The notes under the pieces: model-generated | The model's database searches: none | What the model was told of the DNA's origin: nothing | Seen by the model: the letters and a program-made list of their open reading frames with translations, nothing else | Made by a program: the position numbers and the translations under genes | Virus record (IMG/VR): IMGVR_UViG_2563366948_000001 | Coordinates: 1 to 18,745 of that record | Source: a virus | Taxonomy: Duplodnaviria; Heunggongvirae; Uroviricota; Caudoviricetes | Reading direction: 5' to 3' (one strand) | Length of the DNA: 18,745 nt | Shown: one piece after another, positions 6,029 through 18,120 of the stretch | Layout: each line of letters starts with the position of its first letter | How positions within the stretch are numbered: the first letter of the stretch is position 1

Positions 6029-6726
6029 AAAACATCGCCGCACAGATGGTTAACTTTGACCGTGAGCAGATGCGCCGGATCGCCAACAACATGCCGGAAC
6101 AGTACGACGAAAAGCCGCAGGTACAACAGGTAGCGCAGATCATCAATGGTGTGTTCAGCCAGTTACTGGCAACTTTCCCGGCGAGCCTGGCTAACCGGGA
6201 CCAGAACGAACTGAACGAAATCCGCCGCCAGTGGGTTCTGGCTTTCCGGGAAAACGGGATCACCACGATGGAACAGGTTAACGCAGGAATGCGCGTAGCC
6301 CGTCGGCAGAATCGACCATTCCTGCCATCACCCGGGCAGTTTGTTGCCTGGTGCCGGGAAGAAGCATCCGTTACCGCCGGGCTGCCAAACGCCAGCGAGC
6401 TGGTTGATATGGTTTACGAGTATTGCCGGAAACGTGGCCTGTATCCGGATGCAGAGTCTTATCCGTGGAAATCAAACGCGCACTACTGGCTGGTTACCAA
6501 CCTGTATCAGAACATGCGGGCCAATGCGCTGACTGATGCGGAATTACGGCGCAAGGCTGCCGATGAACTGGCCTGTATGACAGCGCGAATTAACCGTGGT
6601 GAGGCGATACCTGAACCAGTAAAACAACTTCCTGTTATGGGCGGGAGACCGCTTAATCGTGTTCAGGCTCTGGCGAAGATCGCAGAAATCAAAGCGAAGT
6701 TTGGGCTGAAAGGAGCAAGTGTATGA
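6025..6726 (+). CDS. P: Lambda replication protein P (DnaB helicase loader)
   Basis: 233 aa MKNIAAQMVNFDREQMRRIANNMPEQYDEKPQVQQVAQIINGVFSQLLATFPASLANRDQNELNEIRRQW..., recognised as lambda P. Confidence 0.95.
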   Translation: MKNIAAQMVNFDREQMRRIANNMPEQYDEKPQVQQVAQIINGVFSQLLATFPASLANRDQNELNEIRRQWVLAFRENGITTMEQVNAGMRVARRQNRPFLPSPGQFVAWCREEASVTAGLPNASELVDMVYEYCRKRGLYPDAESYPWKSNAHYWLVTNLYQNMRANALTDAELRRKAADELACMTARINRGEAIPEPVKQLPVMGGRPLNRVQALAKIAEIKAKFGLKGASV

Positions 6727-6896
6727 CGGGCAAAGAGGCAATTATTCATTATCTGGAGACGCACAAGAGCTTCTGTGCGCCGGACGTTGCTGTGACAACA
6801 GGTGTGACATTAACCAGCATAAATCAGGCTGCGGCAAAAATGGCGCGGGCAGGAATCCTGGTCATTGATGGTAAGGTCTGGCGAACGTTTGTTTAA
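6723..6896 (+). pseudogene. ren: ren, truncated (57 codons; N-terminus lambda-like, premature end)
   Basis: ATG overlaps P stop; MTGKEAIIHYLETHKSFCAPDVAVTTGVTLTSINQAAAKMARAGILVIDGKVWRT then FV-stop, whereas lambda Ren is 96 aa. Confidence 0.6.
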
Positions 6897-7042
6897 CGGT
6901 TAGCTACTCAGGATGATAGGGCGGGGCAAGTGAGTATGAAGCGGATTTTAAGGAATGCCATCAGAGTTTGGAAATAAAGTGGGTTTTCTAGTGGCAAGAG
7001 ACTTGATAATATTTAGTTCTTTGAATCCAAGGAGATAGGGTT

Positions 7043-7537
7043 ATGAGAAAATTTATTTTAGCCTTTGTTATAAGTGCCTCGTTTACAGCAAATGCTGGTG
7101 TAGAGAAGTTAGGGCCGTGGATAACAAAGTCTGAGATAAATAAAATGACTGACCAGACTGACTTTGTGGCTCTTAATTTATCACCAGATTCATATAACAA
7201 AGCAGGTACTGATCGTGCAACTTCACTGGTGTTGCGTTGTAGTGATAACAAAACAGATGCCTATTTATCATTCAATGATTATATGGGTTCGGACAACCCA
7301 AGAATTACAGTGCGGTTAGATGGCGGAAAGCCGGTCAAGAGTGTTTGGGGAGGTGGGGAAGGCGGTGATTCTGCATTTGCTCCACAACCAATACAATTTA
7401 TAAAGACCTTGGCTAAGCATAAAAAAGCTATTTTTGGGTTTGAACCTTATGGATCAACTATGCAAGTAGTTGAGTTTGACTTGTCTGAGATTGATAAGGT
7501 TGTGGAAAAAATTTCACAGTCTTGCAATTGGAAATGA
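7043..7537 (+). CDS. Secreted or periplasmic protein of unknown function (moron)
   Basis: 164 aa with signal peptide MRKFILAFVISASFTANA and AxA cleavage motif; strong AAGGAGA Shine-Dalgarno 8 nt upstream; AT-rich codon usage unlike flanking lambda DNA; own terminator. Confidence 0.7.
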   Translation: MRKFILAFVISASFTANAGVEKLGPWITKSEINKMTDQTDFVALNLSPDSYNKAGTDRATSLVLRCSDNKTDAYLSFNDYMGSDNPRITVRLDGGKPVKSVWGGGEGGDSAFAPQPIQFIKTLAKHKKAIFGFEPYGSTMQVVEFDLSEIDKVVEKISQSCNWK

Positions 7538-7554
7538 CAAAAAAATTTCATATG

Positions 7555-7580
7555 AACCCAGTTGGCGCTGGGTTTTTTAT
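7555..7580 (+). terminator. Intrinsic terminator of the secreted-protein gene
   Basis: AACCCAG-TTGGCG-CTGGGTT hairpin followed by TTTTTTATTT, 18 nt after the stop codon. Confidence 0.7.
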
Positions 7581-8174
7581 TTCAGTAGCCAATAATGCAT
7601 TCAAAATCTCTTACTTGAGAAACGGCCTATTTGAGATTTCAGTCGTGGCAGGATGATCAGTTGATTCGAGTATTGACGCATTTGCGTTCGGAGCGATTAC
7701 AGTAGATTGTAAATAATAATGAGAAACACATAGCCACATAGCCACCCCGTGGTATTGAAACCATATAATGTTGGATTTGAAAACAGATCTTTTCCCATGT
7801 ATTAATAACTACATCCCCGCGAGTAATTCAAAAAGGAGGGCCCAATTTTGTCCGAGTTTTTGTATTCCCCCGCATGCCGCTGCGGAGCACTACATCTGAG
7901 TGTCTGACTAGGGGATAAAATTAGACTGGATAGTGAGAAGAAAGTGGCGCGCTAGGCTGTGCCGAGTGCTACCAGTACACCTTGGGGGTGTGCAGCTTTC
8001 GCCGAGACTGTAGTGGGTATCGGTTAATGCACGAAAAACCGAGAGGTCAGACAACCAATTTGCCGTAGGATTGTTTCCGGTGCGATACCGGTCTACTAAC
8101 TGAAAGCAATGCGAAAAAGCATAAACTCGGTCCTTCAGTCGCCCTACACACTATTTACTAAGAAGGGCTGAAGC

Positions 8175-10643: not shown

Positions 10644-11726
10644 TTAGAACTGGTAAACCATACCTACAGCAACGATATCATCGGTAGCAACGCCAGATGC
10701 TTTCGTGAAATCGCTCTTATCAATCAGGTTGATTTTGTAATCAACAAAAGTGGACATATTTTTGTTGAAGTAATAGGTTGCACCTACATCAATATATTCA
10801 ACCAGGTCCTGATCACCCCACGCACCCAAGTCTTTTCCTTTAGATTGCAGGTAAGCAACGGACGGACGCAGACCGAAGTCGAACTGATATTGTGCAACTA
10901 CTTCGAAGTTTTGTGCTTTGTTGGCAATATGGTTATTACCAAAAACAGTCATGTTCTGGGTTTCAGAATAGGTGGTAGCCAGATAGATGTTGTTCGCATC
11001 ATATTTCAGACCAGCTGCCCATACTTCAGCATTTTGACCAGATGCATTCAGGCTGTTGTTACCGTAGATAACCTGATTATTAGTGCGGTCAGATTTAGCA
11101 TAGGTTGCACCTACACCGAATCCTTCATACTCATAAGTAGTGGAGAAACCGAAACCATCACCATTAGCTTCAGTTACGTCAGTGCGGTCATTTTTACCCT
11201 GATACTGAGCAGCAAAGTTCAGACCATCAACCAGACCAAAGAAGTCGTTGTTACGATAAGTTGCAACACCAGTGGTGCGACCAGTCATGAACACATCTGT
11301 TTGGGTCCAGGTATCGCCACCGAATTCTGGCAGAACGTCAGTCCACGCACCGATGTCGTATGCTACACCGTAGTTACGGCCGTAATCGATTGAGCCGTAG
11401 TCACCGAATTTCAGGCCTGCAAATGCAAGACGGGTTTTGTCTTTGGAGGAACCTTGAGATTCAGCGCGGTTGCCTTTGAATTCATATTCCCACTGACCGA
11501 AACCAGTCAGTTGATCGTTGATTTGGGTTTCACCTTTGAAGCCAAGACGGGCATAAGTAGTATCACCATCATCTGCATCATTAGAGGAGAAGTAGTGCTT
11601 AGCATTAACTTTCCCGTACAGATCCAGCTTGTTACTGTCTTTATTATAAATTTCAGCTGCCTGAGCAGACATCGCCATCAGTACTGATGCAGCTACAGCA
11701 GAAATTGCCACTGTTAATTTTTTCAT
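10644..11726 (-). CDS. nmpC: Phage-encoded general porin (OmpC/OmpF family; NmpC/Lc-like), apparently intact
   Basis: 360 aa with signal peptide [23 protein letters not shown], porin N-terminus [16 protein letters not shown] and C-terminal ...VYQF; sits between Q and the lysis genes on the opposite strand. Confidence 0.9.
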
Positions 11727-12154
11727 CGTGAGCCCTTTTTTTTGAACTATTATTAAAAAATGATGTCACTGCGCGATAAATATTCATCTAATCAATGTGA
11801 TTATTTCAAGATGTAAGTTTTGGTTTCTCGTTTGATTTGTGAAGTAGATCTCTATTTTTATCTGAACTTTTTTCTATCGAATCCTATTCATAGCTCTTGG
11901 CTGAATAAAAATAAATCTATTAGCCAATTTATATTAACGGCTGTTATTTATAAGTGCTCTATAATTTGAAGGTTCAATTTAAATCGGCTAAAAATAACAC
12001 TGGAAATTATTTGTTGGTTATTTGTTGAGATTTGCTTATGTATTTGTAGTGGTGTTTTCAATACTCGGTAGCATTCTCGCAAATATCATTTAGTGGTTTA
12101 CGTACGTAAAAAATTGGTTATGCTGTTAAGAGTGGTTACTTCGTCACACAGCTT
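11727..12154 (-). promoter_or_regulatory. AT-rich porin upstream region (promoter or regulator-binding candidate)
   Basis: ~430 bp strongly AT-rich with phased A/T tracts immediately upstream of the porin start; no ORF. Confidence 0.35.
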
Positions 12155-12187
12155 AAACCCGCCGTCGAGCGGGTTTTTCCATTTTTT
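12155..12187 (+). terminator. Candidate intrinsic terminator upstream of the lysis cassette
   Basis: AAACCCGC-CGTCGA-GCGGGTTT hairpin followed by TTCCATTTTTT; position computed from the holin ATG at 12300. Confidence 0.45.
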
Positions 12188-12299
12188 GAGTCTCGATATT
12201 AGCTGATAACCCAATACCTGAGTTATTCACTGACTCCGAGTCTGTTACGTTTCGTAGTATTCCCTCAATTTACACCCGCTTTGTCTGCGAGGTGGGGTT

Positions 12300-13501: not shown

Positions 13502-13795
13502 TTATTGTGAGCAATACACACGCGCTTCCAGCGGAGTATAAATGCCTAAAGTAATAAAACCGAGAAATCCATTTACGAATGTTTGCTGGGTTTCTGTTTT
13601 AACAACATTTTCTGCGCCGCCACAAATTTGGGCTGCATCAACAGTTTTCTCCTGTCCAATTCCCGAAACGAAGAAATGATGGGTGATGGTTTCCTTTGGT
13701 GTTACTGCTGTCGGTTTGTTTCCAACAGTAAACGTCTGTTGAGCACATCCTGTAATAAGCATTGCCAGAGCGGCAGAAAACAACATTTTTTTCAT
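13502..13795 (-). CDS. bor: Bor lipoprotein (serum-resistance, lysogenic conversion)
   Basis: 97 aa MKKMLFSAALAMLITGCAQQTFTVGNKPTAVTPKETITHHFFVSGIGQEK..., recognised as Bor; track ORF extends 16 codons upstream. Confidence 0.9.
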   Translation of the reverse strand: MKKMLFSAALAMLITGCAQQTFTVGNKPTAVTPKETITHHFFVSGIGQEKTVDAAQICGGAENVVKTETQQTFVNGFLGFITLGIYTPLEARVYCSQ

Positions 13796-13961
13796 CTTAT
13801 TATCCTGCATTGTTAAAAACGGCAGAATCCTATGTGACAACAATTAAACGATAGTTAAATGGATTGATGAAAATTAAAACTATATAGGTGGATGCTCAGC
13901 CTATTGGAGGAGGGGGGCACTCAGAATCCTGTGGAATGAAATAAACCGCTCTATCTGTCCA

Positions 13962-16353: not shown

Positions 16354-17539
16354 GGTGAATGGTAAGGCGCTTTCAGCGGATATAACACTGACGCCGAAAG
16401 ATATTGGTACGCTTAACTCAACAACAATGTCATTCAGCGGTGGTGCTGGTTGGTTCAAATTAGCAACGGTAACCATGCCACAGGCGAGTTCTGTTGTTTC
16501 AATTACGTTGATTGGTGGCGCGGGATTTAACGTGGGGTCACCTCAACAGGCAGGTATATCTGAACTTGTTTTGCGTGCAGGTAATGGTAATCCGAAGGGG
16601 ATTACTGGTGCTTTATGGCAGCGCACATCGACAGGGTTTACAAATTTTGCCTGGGTCAATACATCTGGTGATACTTACGATATTTACGTTGCAATCGGAA
16701 ATTATGCGACTGGTGTAAATATTCAATGGGATTATACCAGTAATGCCAGCGTGACGATTCATACGTCACCAGCATATTCTGCTAATAAGCCGGAAGGGTT
16801 AACGGACGGTACAGTTTATTCACTCTATACGCCATCAGAGCAGTTTTATCCGCCTGGCGCACCAATCCCGTGGCCATCAGATACCGTTCCGTCTGGCTAT
16901 GCCCTGATGCAAGGGCAGACTTTTGACAAATCTGCATACCCGAAACTTGCAGCCGCTTATCCGTCAGGCGTGATCCCTGATATGCGTGGCTGGACGATTA
17001 AGGGCAAACCCGCCAGTGGTCGTGCCGTATTGTCTCAGGAACAGGACGGCATTAAATCGCACACCCACAGCGCCAGCGCATCCAGTACGGATTTGGGGAC
17101 GAAAAACACATCGTCGTTTGATTACGGAACCAAATCCACGAATAACACCGGGGCGCATACCCATAGTATTAGCGGGACTGCAAATAGTGCCGGTGCGCAC
17201 CAACACAAGAGTTCCGGTGCATTTGGTGGCACGAACACGAGCATTTTCCCTAATGGTTATACCGCGATTTCAAATCTAAGCGCGGGGATTATGAGCACAA
17301 CAAGCGGTAGTGGCCAGACTCGTAATGCAGGGAAGACATCATCAGATGGTGCTCATACCCACTCGCTGTCCGGCACTGCTGCAAGCGCAGGCGCACACGC
17401 ACATACTGTCGGTATTGGTGCTCATACGCACTCCGTTGCGATTGGCTCACATGGACACACCATCACCGTTAACGCTGCTGGTAACGCGGAAAACACCGTC
17501 AAAAACATCGCATTTAACTATATTGTGAGGCTTGCATAA
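16339..17539 (+). pseudogene. stf: Side tail fibre Stf, C-terminal ~400 codons only
   Basis: Open frame continuous with track ORF 16307-17539; contains tail-fibre-type His-rich repeats (GAHTHS, GAHQHK, GAHAHT, GSHGHT); no credible start; abuts truncated lom. Confidence 0.75.
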
Positions 17540-18120
17540 TGGCATTCAGAATGAGTGAACAAGCACGGACCATAAAAATTTATAATCTGCTGGCCGGAAC
17601 TAATGAATTTATTGGTGAAGGTGACGCATATATTCCGCCTCATACAGGTCTGCCAGCAAACAGTACCGATATTGCACCGCCAGATATTCCGGCTGGCTTC
17701 GTGGCTGTTTTCAACAGTGATGAGTCATCGTGGCATCTCGTTGAAGATCATCGGGGTAAAACGGTTTATGACGTGGCTTCCGGCGATGCGTTATTTATTT
17801 CTGAACTCGGTCCGTTACCGGAAAATGTTACCTGGTTATCGCCGGGAGGGGAGTTTCAGAAGTGGAACGGCACAGCCTGGGTGAAGGATACGGAAGCAGA
17901 AAAACTGTTCCGGATCCGGGAGGCGGAAGAAACAAAAAACAGCCTGATGCAGGTAGCCAGTGAGCATATAGCGCCGCTTCAGGATGCTGTGGATCTGGAA
18001 ATCGCAACGGAGGAAGAAACCTTGTTGCTGGAAGCCTGGAAAAAGTATCGGGTGTTGCTGAACCGTGTTGATACATCAACTGCACCGGATATTGAATGGC
18101 CAGTAGCACCTATAGGGTAA
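17539..18120 (+). CDS. tfa: Tail fibre assembly protein Tfa
   Basis: 193 aa [54 protein letters not shown]..., recognised as lambda Tfa; start overlaps stf stop. Confidence 0.9.

What the first reader, a model, noticed from the sequence alone, without database searches (positions are those of the whole stretch)
7043..7582. Low-GC secreted-protein gene forming a self-contained transcription unit
The 164-aa ORF has a Sec signal peptide (MRKFILAFVISASFTANA), two cysteines in the mature part, a strong Shine-Dalgarno and an intrinsic terminator 18 nt past the stop. Its AT-rich composition contrasts with flanking lambda DNA, which suggests independent acquisition and expression in the lysogen. A periplasmic prophage protein could act in superinfection exclusion or modify the envelope.
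Basis: partly seen in the sequence, partly recalled or inferred. Interest (0 to 1): 0.6.

Follow-up and report, generated by a model that had tools for sequence, protein, structure and literature searches.

The report
Prophage moron encoding periplasmic VasI-like protein
A 650-bp add-on gene cassette in a lambda-like E. coli prophage encodes an exported protein distantly related to VasI/TagO, an uncharacterised accessory protein of type VI secretion systems; the cassette is real and mobile, its family is already annotated, and its function (most likely protecting the lysogen at the cell envelope) has never been tested.

Summary
Window 7043-7537 (+) is a genuine 164-aa gene with an AAGGAG Shine-Dalgarno, a Sec-type signal peptide, two invariant cysteines, 39% GC (O/P/ren: 54%) and a terminator 16 nt past the stop.

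New here:
- **Cassette.** It is a 649-bp insert (6968-7616) that replaced the 3' end of ren.
- **Promoter.** It has a candidate extended -10 promoter (TGATAATAT, 7004-7012). A -10-like hexamer occupies that position in 41 of 42 distinct upstream sequences of relatives.
- **Mobility.** Relatives lie in 109 IMG/VR contigs, mostly between the tail chaperone and tape measure genes. That is the slot of the HK97 gene 15 moron, and it is shared with Cor and other lipoprotein morons.
- **Family.** The protein is a distant true homologue of the T6SS VasI/TagO domain (hhalign 98% against E. coli VasI). It fails the VasI equivalog model and is never in a T6SS cluster. RefSeq already names it TagO.

Function is untested. 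I favour envelope-level exclusion of incoming phage (about 0.4). A T6SS-related role is the main rival. Verdict: a solid but ordinary moron of an annotated, uncharacterised family.

The parts
6968..7616 (+). The moron cassette as a whole: a 649-bp insert at the ren/nin junction of the prophage
   Evidence: Homology to the common lambdoid P-ren block (PhiR30_1 and about 150 other phages) ends at 6967. Homology to phages Turner and IdasGreatGrand resumes at 7617. GC is 39-42%, against 54% for O/P/ren.
6723..6896 (+). ren pseudogene: the left flank, truncated by the insertion
   Evidence: A 57-codon ORF with a premature stop. ren homology continues out of frame to 6967, and intact Ren in PhiR30_1 is 97 aa. 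RefSeq marks it 'frameshifted; internal stop'.
7004..7012 (+). Candidate extended -10 promoter element TGATAATAT (TG-n-TAATAT); predicted transcription start near 7019-7020
   Evidence: It is invariant in all 16 distinct flank variants of the 98-100% identity class. TGnTAGGAT, TGnTAACAT and similar motifs sit at the same distance from the ATG in divergent relatives. A -10-like hexamer lies at -45 to -33 in 41 of 42 distinct upstream sequences, against 2% of shuffles (the hexamer set was chosen after seeing the data). The standard -35/-10 scan did not report it because the -35 is weak. It has not been tested experimentally.
7029..7034 (+). Shine-Dalgarno AAGGAG, 8 nt upstream of the ATG
   Evidence: Read directly from the sequence. 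AGGAG is present in all near-identical copies.
7043..7537 (+). [quoted passage not shown]
   Evidence: phrog_1848 E 2.7e-70. PF11319 26.7 bits against a cutoff of 26.5. hhalign 98% against E. coli T6SS VasI. AF2 model pLDDT 77.8.
7043..7096 (+). Signal-peptide coding part (residues 1-18, predicted cleavage ANA|GV)
   Evidence: Rule-based analysis across 24 family members. Residues 1-17 are disordered in the model.
7238..7240 (+). Codon of Cys66 (R-C motif at the end of a beta strand)
   Evidence: Invariant in the family, 100% conserved in the superfamily, and aligned to the Cys of E. coli VasI 'FSCVDN'.
7523..7525 (+). Codon of Cys161 (C-x-W motif at the end of the C-terminal helix); presumed disulfide partner of Cys66
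   Evidence: Invariant, 99% conserved in the superfamily, and aligned to 'ACHW' of E. coli VasI.
7554..7582 (+). Intrinsic terminator (stem 7554-7575, T-run to 7582)
   Evidence: 9 pairs, 4 G-C, loop of 4. dG about -12.2 kcal/mol; a terminator is present in 44 of 49 distinct downstream flanks of relatives.

Best explanation
**What it is (shown in silico, about 0.9).** Window 6968-7616 is a moron. It is an autonomous, horizontally mobile expression cassette inserted at the ren/nin junction of a lambdoid prophage that sits at att-lambda next to ybhC.

**How it is expressed (promoter inferred).** The cassette consists of a candidate extended -10 promoter, a strong Shine-Dalgarno, one gene and an intrinsic terminator. 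It can therefore be transcribed in the repressed prophage. It should also be read through from pR under antitermination during lytic growth.

**The product (inferred from sequence and model).** The product is exported by Sec and cleaved after Ala18. This gives a soluble, acidic 16-kDa periplasmic protein (146 aa, pI 5.9). It is a beta-sandwich with two helices, probably stapled by a Cys66-Cys161 disulfide. It is a compact version of the VasI/TagO domain, and its closest solved structure is IalB.

**What it does (inference, about 0.4).** Like the HK97 gp15 and Cor morons that occupy the same genomic slot in relatives, it most likely protects the lysogen at the envelope. As a periplasmic binding protein it would interfere with the periplasmic stage of entry of a superinfecting phage (tail tip or tape measure passage, or the host factor that passage uses). 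This would be superinfection exclusion without loss of the surface receptor.
For: **Cassette and mobility**
- Defined joints and alternative cargo at the same junction.
- GC 39% against 54% for O/P/ren.
- Terminator.
- The promoter element's position is conserved while the distal upstream DNA falls into 26 unrelated classes.
- 109 IMG/VR loci encode relatives.
- The gene is present in the isolated phage IdasGreatGrand.

**Export**
- All 24 aligned family members have a three-part signal peptide.
- The cysteine pair is invariant, as expected for a periplasmic disulfide.

**Genomic slot**
- In 16 of 23 representative loci (22 of them divergent relatives) the gene directly precedes the tape measure gene; in 5 more, one to three small ORFs intervene.
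- In L090 the order is tail chaperone, tail_T, VasI-like gene, tape measure.
- This is the slot of HK97 gene 15, which has the same terminator-then-tape-measure architecture.
- HK97 gp15 is expressed from the prophage and blocks genome entry (PMC3594210).

**Neighbours**
- In L046 the gene immediately upstream is Cor, a known exclusion lipoprotein.
- Four of the other morons in the hot spot are lipoproteins, one has a Sec signal and one a signal anchor; several share the same promoter-leader module.

**Fold precedent**
- SDIC4B is a Sec-signal, two-cysteine protein of about 140 aa reported to have a VasI-like fold. On its own it gives 10-200-fold phage protection (bioRxiv 10.1101/2024.01.28.577318).
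- The model I built for its family has the same element order: seven strands, a helix, two strands, then C-terminal helix (split in two in the SDIC4B model).
- Foldseek finds the fold in uncharacterised proteins of lytic phages RB16, KP15 and VH7D. That points to a phage-centred role rather than a host-virulence role.
Against: - There is no expression, localisation or phenotype data for this gene.
- The promoter is a consensus-level call, and the standard -35/-10 scan missed it.
- There is no sequence homology to any proven exclusion protein. SDIC4B is not detectably homologous: hhalign 0.5% with rich profiles on both sides, when the same profile gives 98% for T6SS VasI.
- PADLOC has no match.
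- The only family-level homology is to a T6SS accessory protein, which points elsewhere.
- Adjacency to the tape measure gene may only reflect a permissive insertion site inherited with the tail module.
- Known gp15-type and SieA-type exclusion proteins are membrane proteins, not soluble periplasmic ones.
- In this window the cassette is in the early-right operon, not the tail operon.
Confidence: 0.4

Rival explanations
1. T6SS-related function. The phage-borne VasI domain does in the periplasm what VasI/TagO does for type VI secretion. It could modulate the host's own T6SS, or act as a decoy or shield that protects the lysogen against incoming T6SS attack.
For: - True homology to T6SS VasI: PF11319 at threshold and hhalign 98%, E 2.5e-13 against E. 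coli EDL933 VasI, which lies between tssH and tssA.
- The superfamily signature residues are all retained: W26, D37, R65-C66, N69, T71, R91-x-D93, W102, F112, P135-Y136, F145, C161-x-W163.
- RefSeq names the gene TagO.
- The C. rodentium prophage paper classed its VasI-family cargo gene as T6SS/virulence-related.
Against: - It fails the VasI equivalog model badly (TIGR03360: 14.4 bits against a cutoff of 124.2).
- It lacks the N-terminal 77 positions of the Pfam model.
- It is never found next to T6SS genes. All three informative contexts of the more distant relatives sampled are also mobile elements.
- The domain also occurs fused to cytochrome c or DUF2939, so it is not specific to T6SS.
- The function of VasI/TagO is itself unknown (PMC13584744), so the homology transfers no mechanism.
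Confidence: 0.2
2. General lysogenic-conversion or host-interaction factor, comparable to Bor/Iss, Lom or Bartonella IalB. In this reading a periplasmic protein alters envelope properties (serum, bile or stress resistance, adhesion or invasion) rather than phage entry.
For: - The same prophage carries two classical envelope morons of this type: a porin at 10644-11726 (-) and Iss/Bor.
- Host strains come from animals, humans and the environment.
Against: - There is no IalB Pfam match at E <= 1, and identity to 3dtd is 10%.
- IalB's own mechanism is unknown.
- The fold also occurs in strictly lytic phages, where host-virulence functions are not expected.
- The nearest neighbours in the hot spot include Cor.
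Confidence: 0.15
3. A lytic-cycle function rather than a lysogen function. The gene would be made mainly by read-through of the early or late operon, and would act during virion production or release. Examples would be shielding the infected cell, stopping progeny from injecting into lysing cells, or helping the tail or tape measure in some periplasm-related step.
For: - The gene is always co-oriented with the surrounding operon: pR in the window, the tail operon in relatives.
- In L077 it overlaps the upstream ORF and has no promoter motif.
- Lytic T4-like phages encode proteins with this fold.
Against: - Flanking terminators and a conserved promoter-like element are the signature of prophage-expressed morons, and they serve no purpose for a purely operonic gene.
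- Virion assembly is cytoplasmic, whereas this protein is exported.
- The gene is absent from most related phages, so it is dispensable for growth.
Confidence: 0.1

Closest known systems
T6SS accessory protein VasI / TagO (Pfam PF11319; NCBIfam TIGR03360; V. cholerae VCA0118; E. coli EDL933_RS01165)
   Same: - Homologous C-terminal domain: hhalign 98%, 107 columns.
- Both cysteines and the C-x-W C-terminus align.
- The N-terminus of E. coli VasI also reads as a signal sequence (my reading of the sequence printed).
- Function is unknown for both.
   Different: - 164 aa against 247 aa, with only about 18% identity.
- It lacks the N-terminal 77 positions of the Pfam model.
- It scores 14 bits against the 124-bit equivalog cutoff.
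- It is encoded in phages and prophages, never between tssH/vasH and tssA.
HK97 gene 15 moron (gp15, a superinfection exclusion protein)
   Same: - The same kind of element: promoter, one small ORF and a terminator, with low GC.
- Relatives of the window gene occupy the identical slot between the tail assembly chaperone and tape measure genes, with the terminator directly before the tape measure ATG.
- gp15 is expressed from the prophage and blocks genome entry (PMC3594210).
   Different: - No sequence or fold relationship.
- gp15 is a 62-aa inner-membrane protein, whereas this is a 146-aa soluble periplasmic domain.
- The promoter sequence differs.
- In this window the cassette lies at the ren/nin junction, not in the tail operon.
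SDIC4B of the Serratia SDIC4 anti-phage system (PF27224)
   Same: - Architecture: a Sec-type signal peptide, about 136 aa mature, one cysteine at the end of an early strand and one near the C-terminus.
- The predicted order of secondary-structure elements is the same.
- Its authors report a VasI-like fold by HHpred. SDIC4B alone gives 10-200-fold protection.
   Different: - No detectable sequence homology: hhalign 0.5-1.2%, BLASTP E 0.07, no Pfam VasI hit.
- It is chromosomal, in defence islands next to BrxR, not in phages.
Bartonella invasion-associated protein B (IalB, PDB 3dtd)
   Different: Identity is 9-10%. There is no PF06776 hit at E <= 1. IalB is an alphaproteobacterial chromosomal gene linked to erythrocyte invasion.
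Cor (phi80/N15/HK022) and other envelope morons such as lambda Bor/Iss and Lom
   Same: - Prophage-expressed, envelope-targeted accessory genes.
- Cor is the gene immediately upstream of a relative in L046.
- Iss/Bor and a porin moron are in the same window prophage.
   Different: Cor and Bor are lipoproteins and Lom is an outer-membrane beta-barrel. This protein has no lipobox and no membrane segment after the signal peptide. There is no homology.

Membership tests
Phage moron (Juhala et al. 2000; Cumby, Davidson and Maxwell 2012, PMC3594210) | An extra DNA segment that is present in some closely related phages and absent from others at the same position | tested here: met
   About 150 lambdoid phages share P-ren up to window 6967 and then diverge. 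Turner matches again from 7617. PhiR30_1 has an acyltransferase and a lipoprotein at that junction, and Turner has other cargo.
Phage moron (Juhala et al. 2000; Cumby, Davidson and Maxwell 2012, PMC3594210) | GC content different from the surrounding genes | tested here: met
   ORF 39.0% GC (GC3 31.7%) against 54% for O/P/ren and 47.6% for the window; 6th percentile.
Phage moron (Juhala et al. 2000; Cumby, Davidson and Maxwell 2012, PMC3594210) | Its own terminator | tested here: met
   7554-7582, dG about -12 kcal/mol. Conserved in 44 of 49 distinct flanks of relatives.
Phage moron (Juhala et al. 2000; Cumby, Davidson and Maxwell 2012, PMC3594210) | Its own promoter | tested here: inconclusive
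   TGATAATAT at 7004-7012. A -10-like hexamer occupies the same position in 41 of 42 distinct upstream sequences, and a TGn extension is present in 38 of 49. This is sequence evidence only; the generic scan did not call it.
Phage moron (Juhala et al. 2000; Cumby, Davidson and Maxwell 2012, PMC3594210) | Expressed from the repressed prophage | not testable with these tools
   Needs RNA-seq, 5' RACE or proteomics on a lysogen.
T6SS VasI (NCBIfam TIGR03360 equivalog) | Score at or above the curated equivalog cutoff | tested here: not met
   14.4 bits against a cutoff of 124.2, covering residues 60-163 only.
T6SS VasI (NCBIfam TIGR03360 equivalog) | Encoded inside a T6SS gene cluster (between tssH/vasH and tssA) | tested here: not met
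   It lies between ren and the nin genes of a prophage. Relatives lie in phage tail operons. For contrast, the EDL933 vasI context is shown.
VasI domain superfamily (Pfam PF11319) | Pfam gathering threshold | tested here: met
   26.7 bits against 26.5, which is borderline, and it covers only profile positions 78-184 of 184. Most family members have a precomputed PF11319 hit.
VasI domain superfamily (Pfam PF11319) | Profile-level homology to a genuine T6SS VasI, with the conserved cysteine pair and the C-x-W end retained | tested here: met
   hhalign 98%, E 2.5e-13, 107 columns against E. coli VasI. C66 is conserved in 100% and C161 in 99% of 146 superfamily members, and W163 in 95%. The exhaustive search found 3,825 cluster representatives at E <= 1e-3.
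Sec-exported soluble periplasmic protein | Three-part signal peptide with an SPase I site, no lipobox, and no further membrane segment | tested here: met
   Rule-based analysis: 2 basic residues, hydrophobic core, ANA|G after residue 18. The same design is found in all 24 family members. The N-terminus is disordered in the model. SignalP and experimental localisation were not available.
SDIC4B anti-phage family (PF27224) | Sequence or profile homology to SDIC4B | tested here: not met
   hhalign 0.5% (107-sequence against 116-sequence profiles) and 1.2%. BLASTP E 0.07.
SDIC4B anti-phage family (PF27224) | Association with a BrxR-type regulator or a defence island | tested here: not met
   No such neighbour in the window or in the annotated prophages. 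PADLOC has no hit.
IalB family (Pfam PF06776) | Sequence membership | tested here: not met
Superinfection exclusion proteins (functional class) | Expression in the lysogen lowers plating of, or DNA entry by, superinfecting phage | not testable with these tools
   Only contextual support is available: the HK97 gp15 slot, adjacency to Cor, and export to the envelope.

The most novel reading that the evidence does not exclude
Phage-borne mini-VasI proteins could form a widespread, unrecognised class of soluble periplasmic anti-entry factors. They would bind the tip or tape measure (or spike) of incoming contractile or tail-like injection devices. If so, the long-uncharacterised T6SS accessory protein VasI/TagO would be the same module, used by the T6SS to manage its own passage through the periplasm, or to guard against sister-cell or phage puncture. 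One cheap phage-plating and T6SS-competition experiment on this 650-bp cassette could then assign a function to a superfamily with at least 3,825 cluster representatives.
Probability: 0.15. Interest if true: 0.7.

Novelty: new member of a known kind. Interest (0 to 1): 0.4.

Why it matters
VasI/TagO is one of the T6SS-associated genes still listed with unknown function in a 2026 review (PMC13584744). RefSeq spreads the name 'T6SS-associated protein TagO' onto prophage genes that have no T6SS context.

This analysis shows that the closest relatives of the phage version are mostly carried on phages and other mobile elements. They sit in the classic HK97 gp15 moron slot, alongside Cor and other lipoprotein morons. 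That reframes the domain as a general periplasmic module. It also gives a small, self-contained and easily cloned cassette with which to test its function.

In practical terms, the T6SS label on this gene should not be counted as a virulence or T6SS marker in genome surveys, as was done for the C. rodentium prophage cargo (PMC6456863).

If the exclusion hypothesis is right, the gene would add a soluble periplasmic type to the known prophage-encoded entry blockers.

Tried and rejected
- **Lipoprotein.** Rejected. The window protein has no cysteine in its signal peptide. Some relatives have a Cys at residue 12, but without a proper lipobox and too close to the N-terminus.
- **Known defence system.** PADLOC has no hit.
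- **Orthologue of T6SS VasI.** Rejected on score, length and context.
- **Homologue of SDIC4B.** I extracted the SDIC4B sequence from the plasmid sequence in the preprint's supplement, collected its family and compared profiles. No homology was found. Only the element order of the two models agrees.
- **Solved-structure relatives by sequence.** None.
- **afdb50 fold search.** The library was not available, so AlphaFold DB neighbours could not be examined.
- **Generic sigma-70 scan.** It found nothing upstream of the gene. The promoter proposal rests on the comparative analysis.
- **Rfam.** Nothing in or near the cassette.
- **Literature.** There is no functional study of phage-borne VasI/TagO.
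- **Contexts.** P0034 has no record, and the P0041 contig is too short to be informative.
Full report
**1. The observation**

The window contains a 164-codon ORF at 7043-7537 (+).
- **Shine-Dalgarno.** AAGGAG lies at 7029-7034, 8 nt before the ATG.
- **Signal peptide.** The N-terminus MRKFILAFVISASFTANA|GVE has the three parts of a Sec signal peptide and one small-x-small cleavage site after residue 18. The same design recurs in all 24 aligned family members although the sequence varies. AlphaFold leaves residues 1-17 disordered.
- **Cysteines.** The mature protein (146 aa, 16.1 kDa, pI 5.9) has two cysteines, C66 and C161. Both are invariant in the family. They are 100% and 99% conserved in 146 more distant relatives.
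- **Terminator.** A hairpin (7554-7575) with a T-run to 7582 begins 16 nt after the stop.
- **Composition.** The ORF is 39.0% GC (GC3 31.7%), against 54% for the adjacent O/P/ren genes.

The only correction is 16 nt rather than 18 nt to the terminator.

**2. Where it sits**

The window is the left half of a lambdoid prophage integrated next to ybhC. The gene order is:
- integrase, excisionase, exo/bet/gam;
- a cI-like repressor, cro-like gene, YdaT-like gene, O, P and a ren pseudogene;
- this gene;
- ybcN, ninE, ybcO, rusA, ylcG and Q;
- a porin gene on the minus strand, the lysis genes, Iss/Bor, and then the terminase genes. The portal and protease assignments are by ORF size and by the related prophage L001.

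Comparison with about 150 phages shows that the shared P-ren block ends at window 6967. Homology to phages Turner and IdasGreatGrand resumes at 7617. The unique insert is therefore 6968-7616, or 649 bp, and it holds nothing except the gene and its signals.

The insertion replaced the 3' end of ren, which now has a premature stop. Other phages carry different cargo at this junction. PhiR30_1 has an acyltransferase and an outer-membrane lipoprotein, and Turner has other genes. IdasGreatGrand has the cassette plus a further 1.84 kb at the 7616/7617 joint.

The gene is at least 95% identical in 84 of 5,426 complete E. coli genomes.

**3. A promoter, and mobility**

Comparing relatives did find one.

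IMG/VR holds 109 contigs that encode relatives with 55-100% identity. In the window class, TGATAATAT (an extended -10, TG-n-TAATAT) lies 30 nt before the ATG and is invariant across 16 distinct flank variants. Divergent relatives have TGnTAGGAT, TGnTAACAT or TGnTACTCT at the same distance. This motif is often preceded by a terminator whose T-run supplies a TTGTCG -35 element.

A -10-like hexamer lies 33-45 nt upstream of the ATG in 41 of 42 distinct upstream sequences, against 2% of shuffles. Meanwhile the DNA further upstream falls into 26 unrelated classes. One caveat applies: I chose the hexamer set after seeing the data. The exception, L077, overlaps the upstream ORF.

Downstream terminators are present in 44 of 49 distinct flanks. 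So the promoter-proximal segment, the gene and the terminator travel together. That is the definition of a moron (PMC3594210). Promoter activity itself remains untested.

**4. The slot used in other phages**

In 16 of 23 representative loci (22 divergent relatives plus the window-type prophage L001) the gene lies directly upstream of the tape measure gene. In 5 more, one to three small ORFs intervene. Only L001 lies elsewhere, at the ren/nin junction.
- A more distant relative (P0032, E 3e-44 to the family profile) lies between the tail assembly chaperone/tail_T genes and the tape measure gene of a lambda-like prophage.
- A 204-aa relative (P0054) lies between a pRha anti-repressor region and a 1,947-aa ORF.
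- A 199-aa relative (P0038) lies in an integrase/YagK-type island.

The slot between chaperone and tape measure is exactly that of HK97 gene 15, with the same terminator-then-tape-measure-ATG architecture. HK97 gene 15 is the founding moron, and its product blocks genome entry by superinfecting phages.

The co-resident genes in this hot spot are anti-repressors, Arc-like regulators and small morons. Of the small morons:
- Four are lipoproteins (L055 128 aa, L080 157 aa, L082 126 aa, and Cor). Cor, a known exclusion protein, lies immediately upstream in L046.
- One has a Sec signal and one has a signal anchor.
- Several share the same promoter-leader module as the VasI-like gene.

**5. What the protein is**

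- **Family searches.** Pfam gives VasI (PF11319) just at threshold: 26.7 against 26.5 bits, covering only profile positions 78-184. The NCBIfam VasI equivalog is far below its cutoff (14.4 against 124.2). PHROGs places the protein in phrog_1848, of unknown function. PADLOC gives nothing.
- **Superfamily size.** An exhaustive profile search found 3,825 cluster representatives at E <= 1e-3 and 1,228 at E <= 1e-10. Many are about 200 aa. Some are fused to cytochrome c or DUF2939.
- **Homology to T6SS VasI.** I fetched the genuine T6SS VasI of E. coli EDL933 (247 aa, between tssH and tssA). Pairwise identity is 18% (E 0.028). A 107-sequence profile of the superfamily aligns it at 98% probability (E 2.5e-13) over 107 columns, with both cysteines and the C-x-W end in register.
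- **Signature residues.** The window protein keeps every superfamily signature residue.

It is therefore a true, compact member of the VasI domain superfamily, but not a T6SS VasI orthologue. RefSeq already labels it 'T6SS-associated protein TagO'. A VasI-family cargo gene was listed for a C. rodentium prophage (PMC6456863). The function of VasI/TagO is unknown (PMC13584744).

**6. Structure**

AlphaFold2 with the family alignment gives a usable model (pLDDT 77.8, pTM 0.74). It has seven strands, a helix, two strands and a C-terminal helix.
- Foldseek on the PDB agrees on IalB.
- BFVD returns only uncharacterised phage proteins, including some from lytic phages RB16, KP15 and VH7D.
- The AFDB library was unavailable.
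- No known lysozyme inhibitor or T6SS immunity protein appears among the matches.

**7. The one experimental lead**

A preprint reports that SDIC4B, a protein with a 'VasI-like fold', protects E. coli 10-200-fold against several phages on its own.

I recovered its sequence from the plasmid sequence in the supplement. It too has a Sec-type signal peptide and two cysteines in comparable positions. Its family is PF27224. Profile-profile comparison finds no homology to the window family (0.5%), while the same profile gives 98% for T6SS VasI. A model I built for the SDIC4B family has the same order of elements. The resemblance is therefore architectural at best, and I give it little weight.

**8. 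Mechanism**

*Shown in silico:*
- an autonomous, mobile, low-GC cassette;
- an exported protein with a conserved cysteine pair;
- VasI-domain homology;
- phage and mobile-element carriage;
- the HK97 gp15 slot, in the company of Cor.

*Inferred:*
- expression from the repressed prophage;
- a periplasmic, disulfide-bonded binding protein;
- action at the envelope.

I commit to superinfection exclusion at the periplasmic stage of entry as the most likely function (about 0.4). The rivals are a T6SS-related role (0.2), a general conversion or host-interaction factor like IalB or Bor (0.15), and a lytic-cycle role (0.1). No data here discriminate decisively between them. The experiments that would do so are listed under next steps.

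**9. Verdict**

This is a real, well-formed moron. The gene family is already annotated (RefSeq TagO, phrog_1848, PF11319) but uncharacterised.

This analysis adds four things: the cassette boundaries, the conserved promoter, the finding that its relatives and the nearest superfamily members sampled are carried on phages and other mobile elements and occupy the gp15 slot, and the caution that its T6SS name reflects domain homology only. Interest is moderate.

Noticed in passing
window 6723-6967: ren is a pseudogene. It has a premature stop at 6894-6896, ren homology continues out of frame to 6967, and the 3' end was replaced by the cassette. Intact Ren in PhiR30_1 is 97 aa.
   Followed up: yes
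L048:7880-8000, L055:8500-8590 and L080:7290-7395: Different morons in the chaperone/tape-measure hot spot share one promoter-leader module (gggttttgtcgtt...ccctgcta(a/c)tct...ggggatagggatATG). These include the VasI-like gene and two unrelated lipoproteins, phrog_20460 and phrog_14435. It looks like a portable expression cassette in which the ORF is exchanged.
   Followed up: partly
window 10644-11726 (-) and about 13502-13843 (-): The same prophage carries two further envelope morons on the opposite strand: a porin gene between Q and the lysis genes, and an Iss/Bor lipoprotein after Rz. The stretch between the porin and the holin (11600-12200) is very AT-rich, at 32% GC.
   Followed up: no
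window 17882-18080 (+): There is a full-length Rfam match to the sRNA family IS009 (221 bits against a gathering score of 117). It lies entirely inside ORF 17539-18120, which by position after the portal gene is the prohead protease. So this 'sRNA' family overlaps phage coding sequence.
   Followed up: no
window 7617-8174: About 560 bp downstream of the cassette have no ORF of 50 aa or more. The stretch is shared at about 94% identity with phages Turner and IdasGreatGrand, where only tiny ORFs are annotated. The 7616/7617 joint is a reused recombination point: IdasGreatGrand has an extra 1.84 kb there.
   Followed up: partly
L086:15387-16130 (E. coli EDL933) compared with window 7043-7537: RefSeq uses two different names for the two branches of one domain family. 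The gene in the T6SS cluster is called 'VasI' and the prophage gene 'TagO'. The review of T6SS accessory factors treats them as synonyms.
   Followed up: partly
SDIC4A, plasmid pGM250, supplement 3 of bioRxiv 10.1101/2024.01.28.577318: SDIC4A is the partner gene of SDIC4B. It also begins with a signal-peptide-like N-terminus (MKELKLLSLLPVILFPLLIAGNAHA). Both SDIC4 components may therefore be periplasmic, which the preprint text does not discuss.
   Followed up: no
P0059, P0065, P0103, P0123 (superfamily members): The VasI domain also occurs as the C-terminal module of longer proteins, fused to cytochrome c domains or to DUF2939. This argues that it is a general periplasmic module rather than one specific to T6SS.
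   Followed up: no
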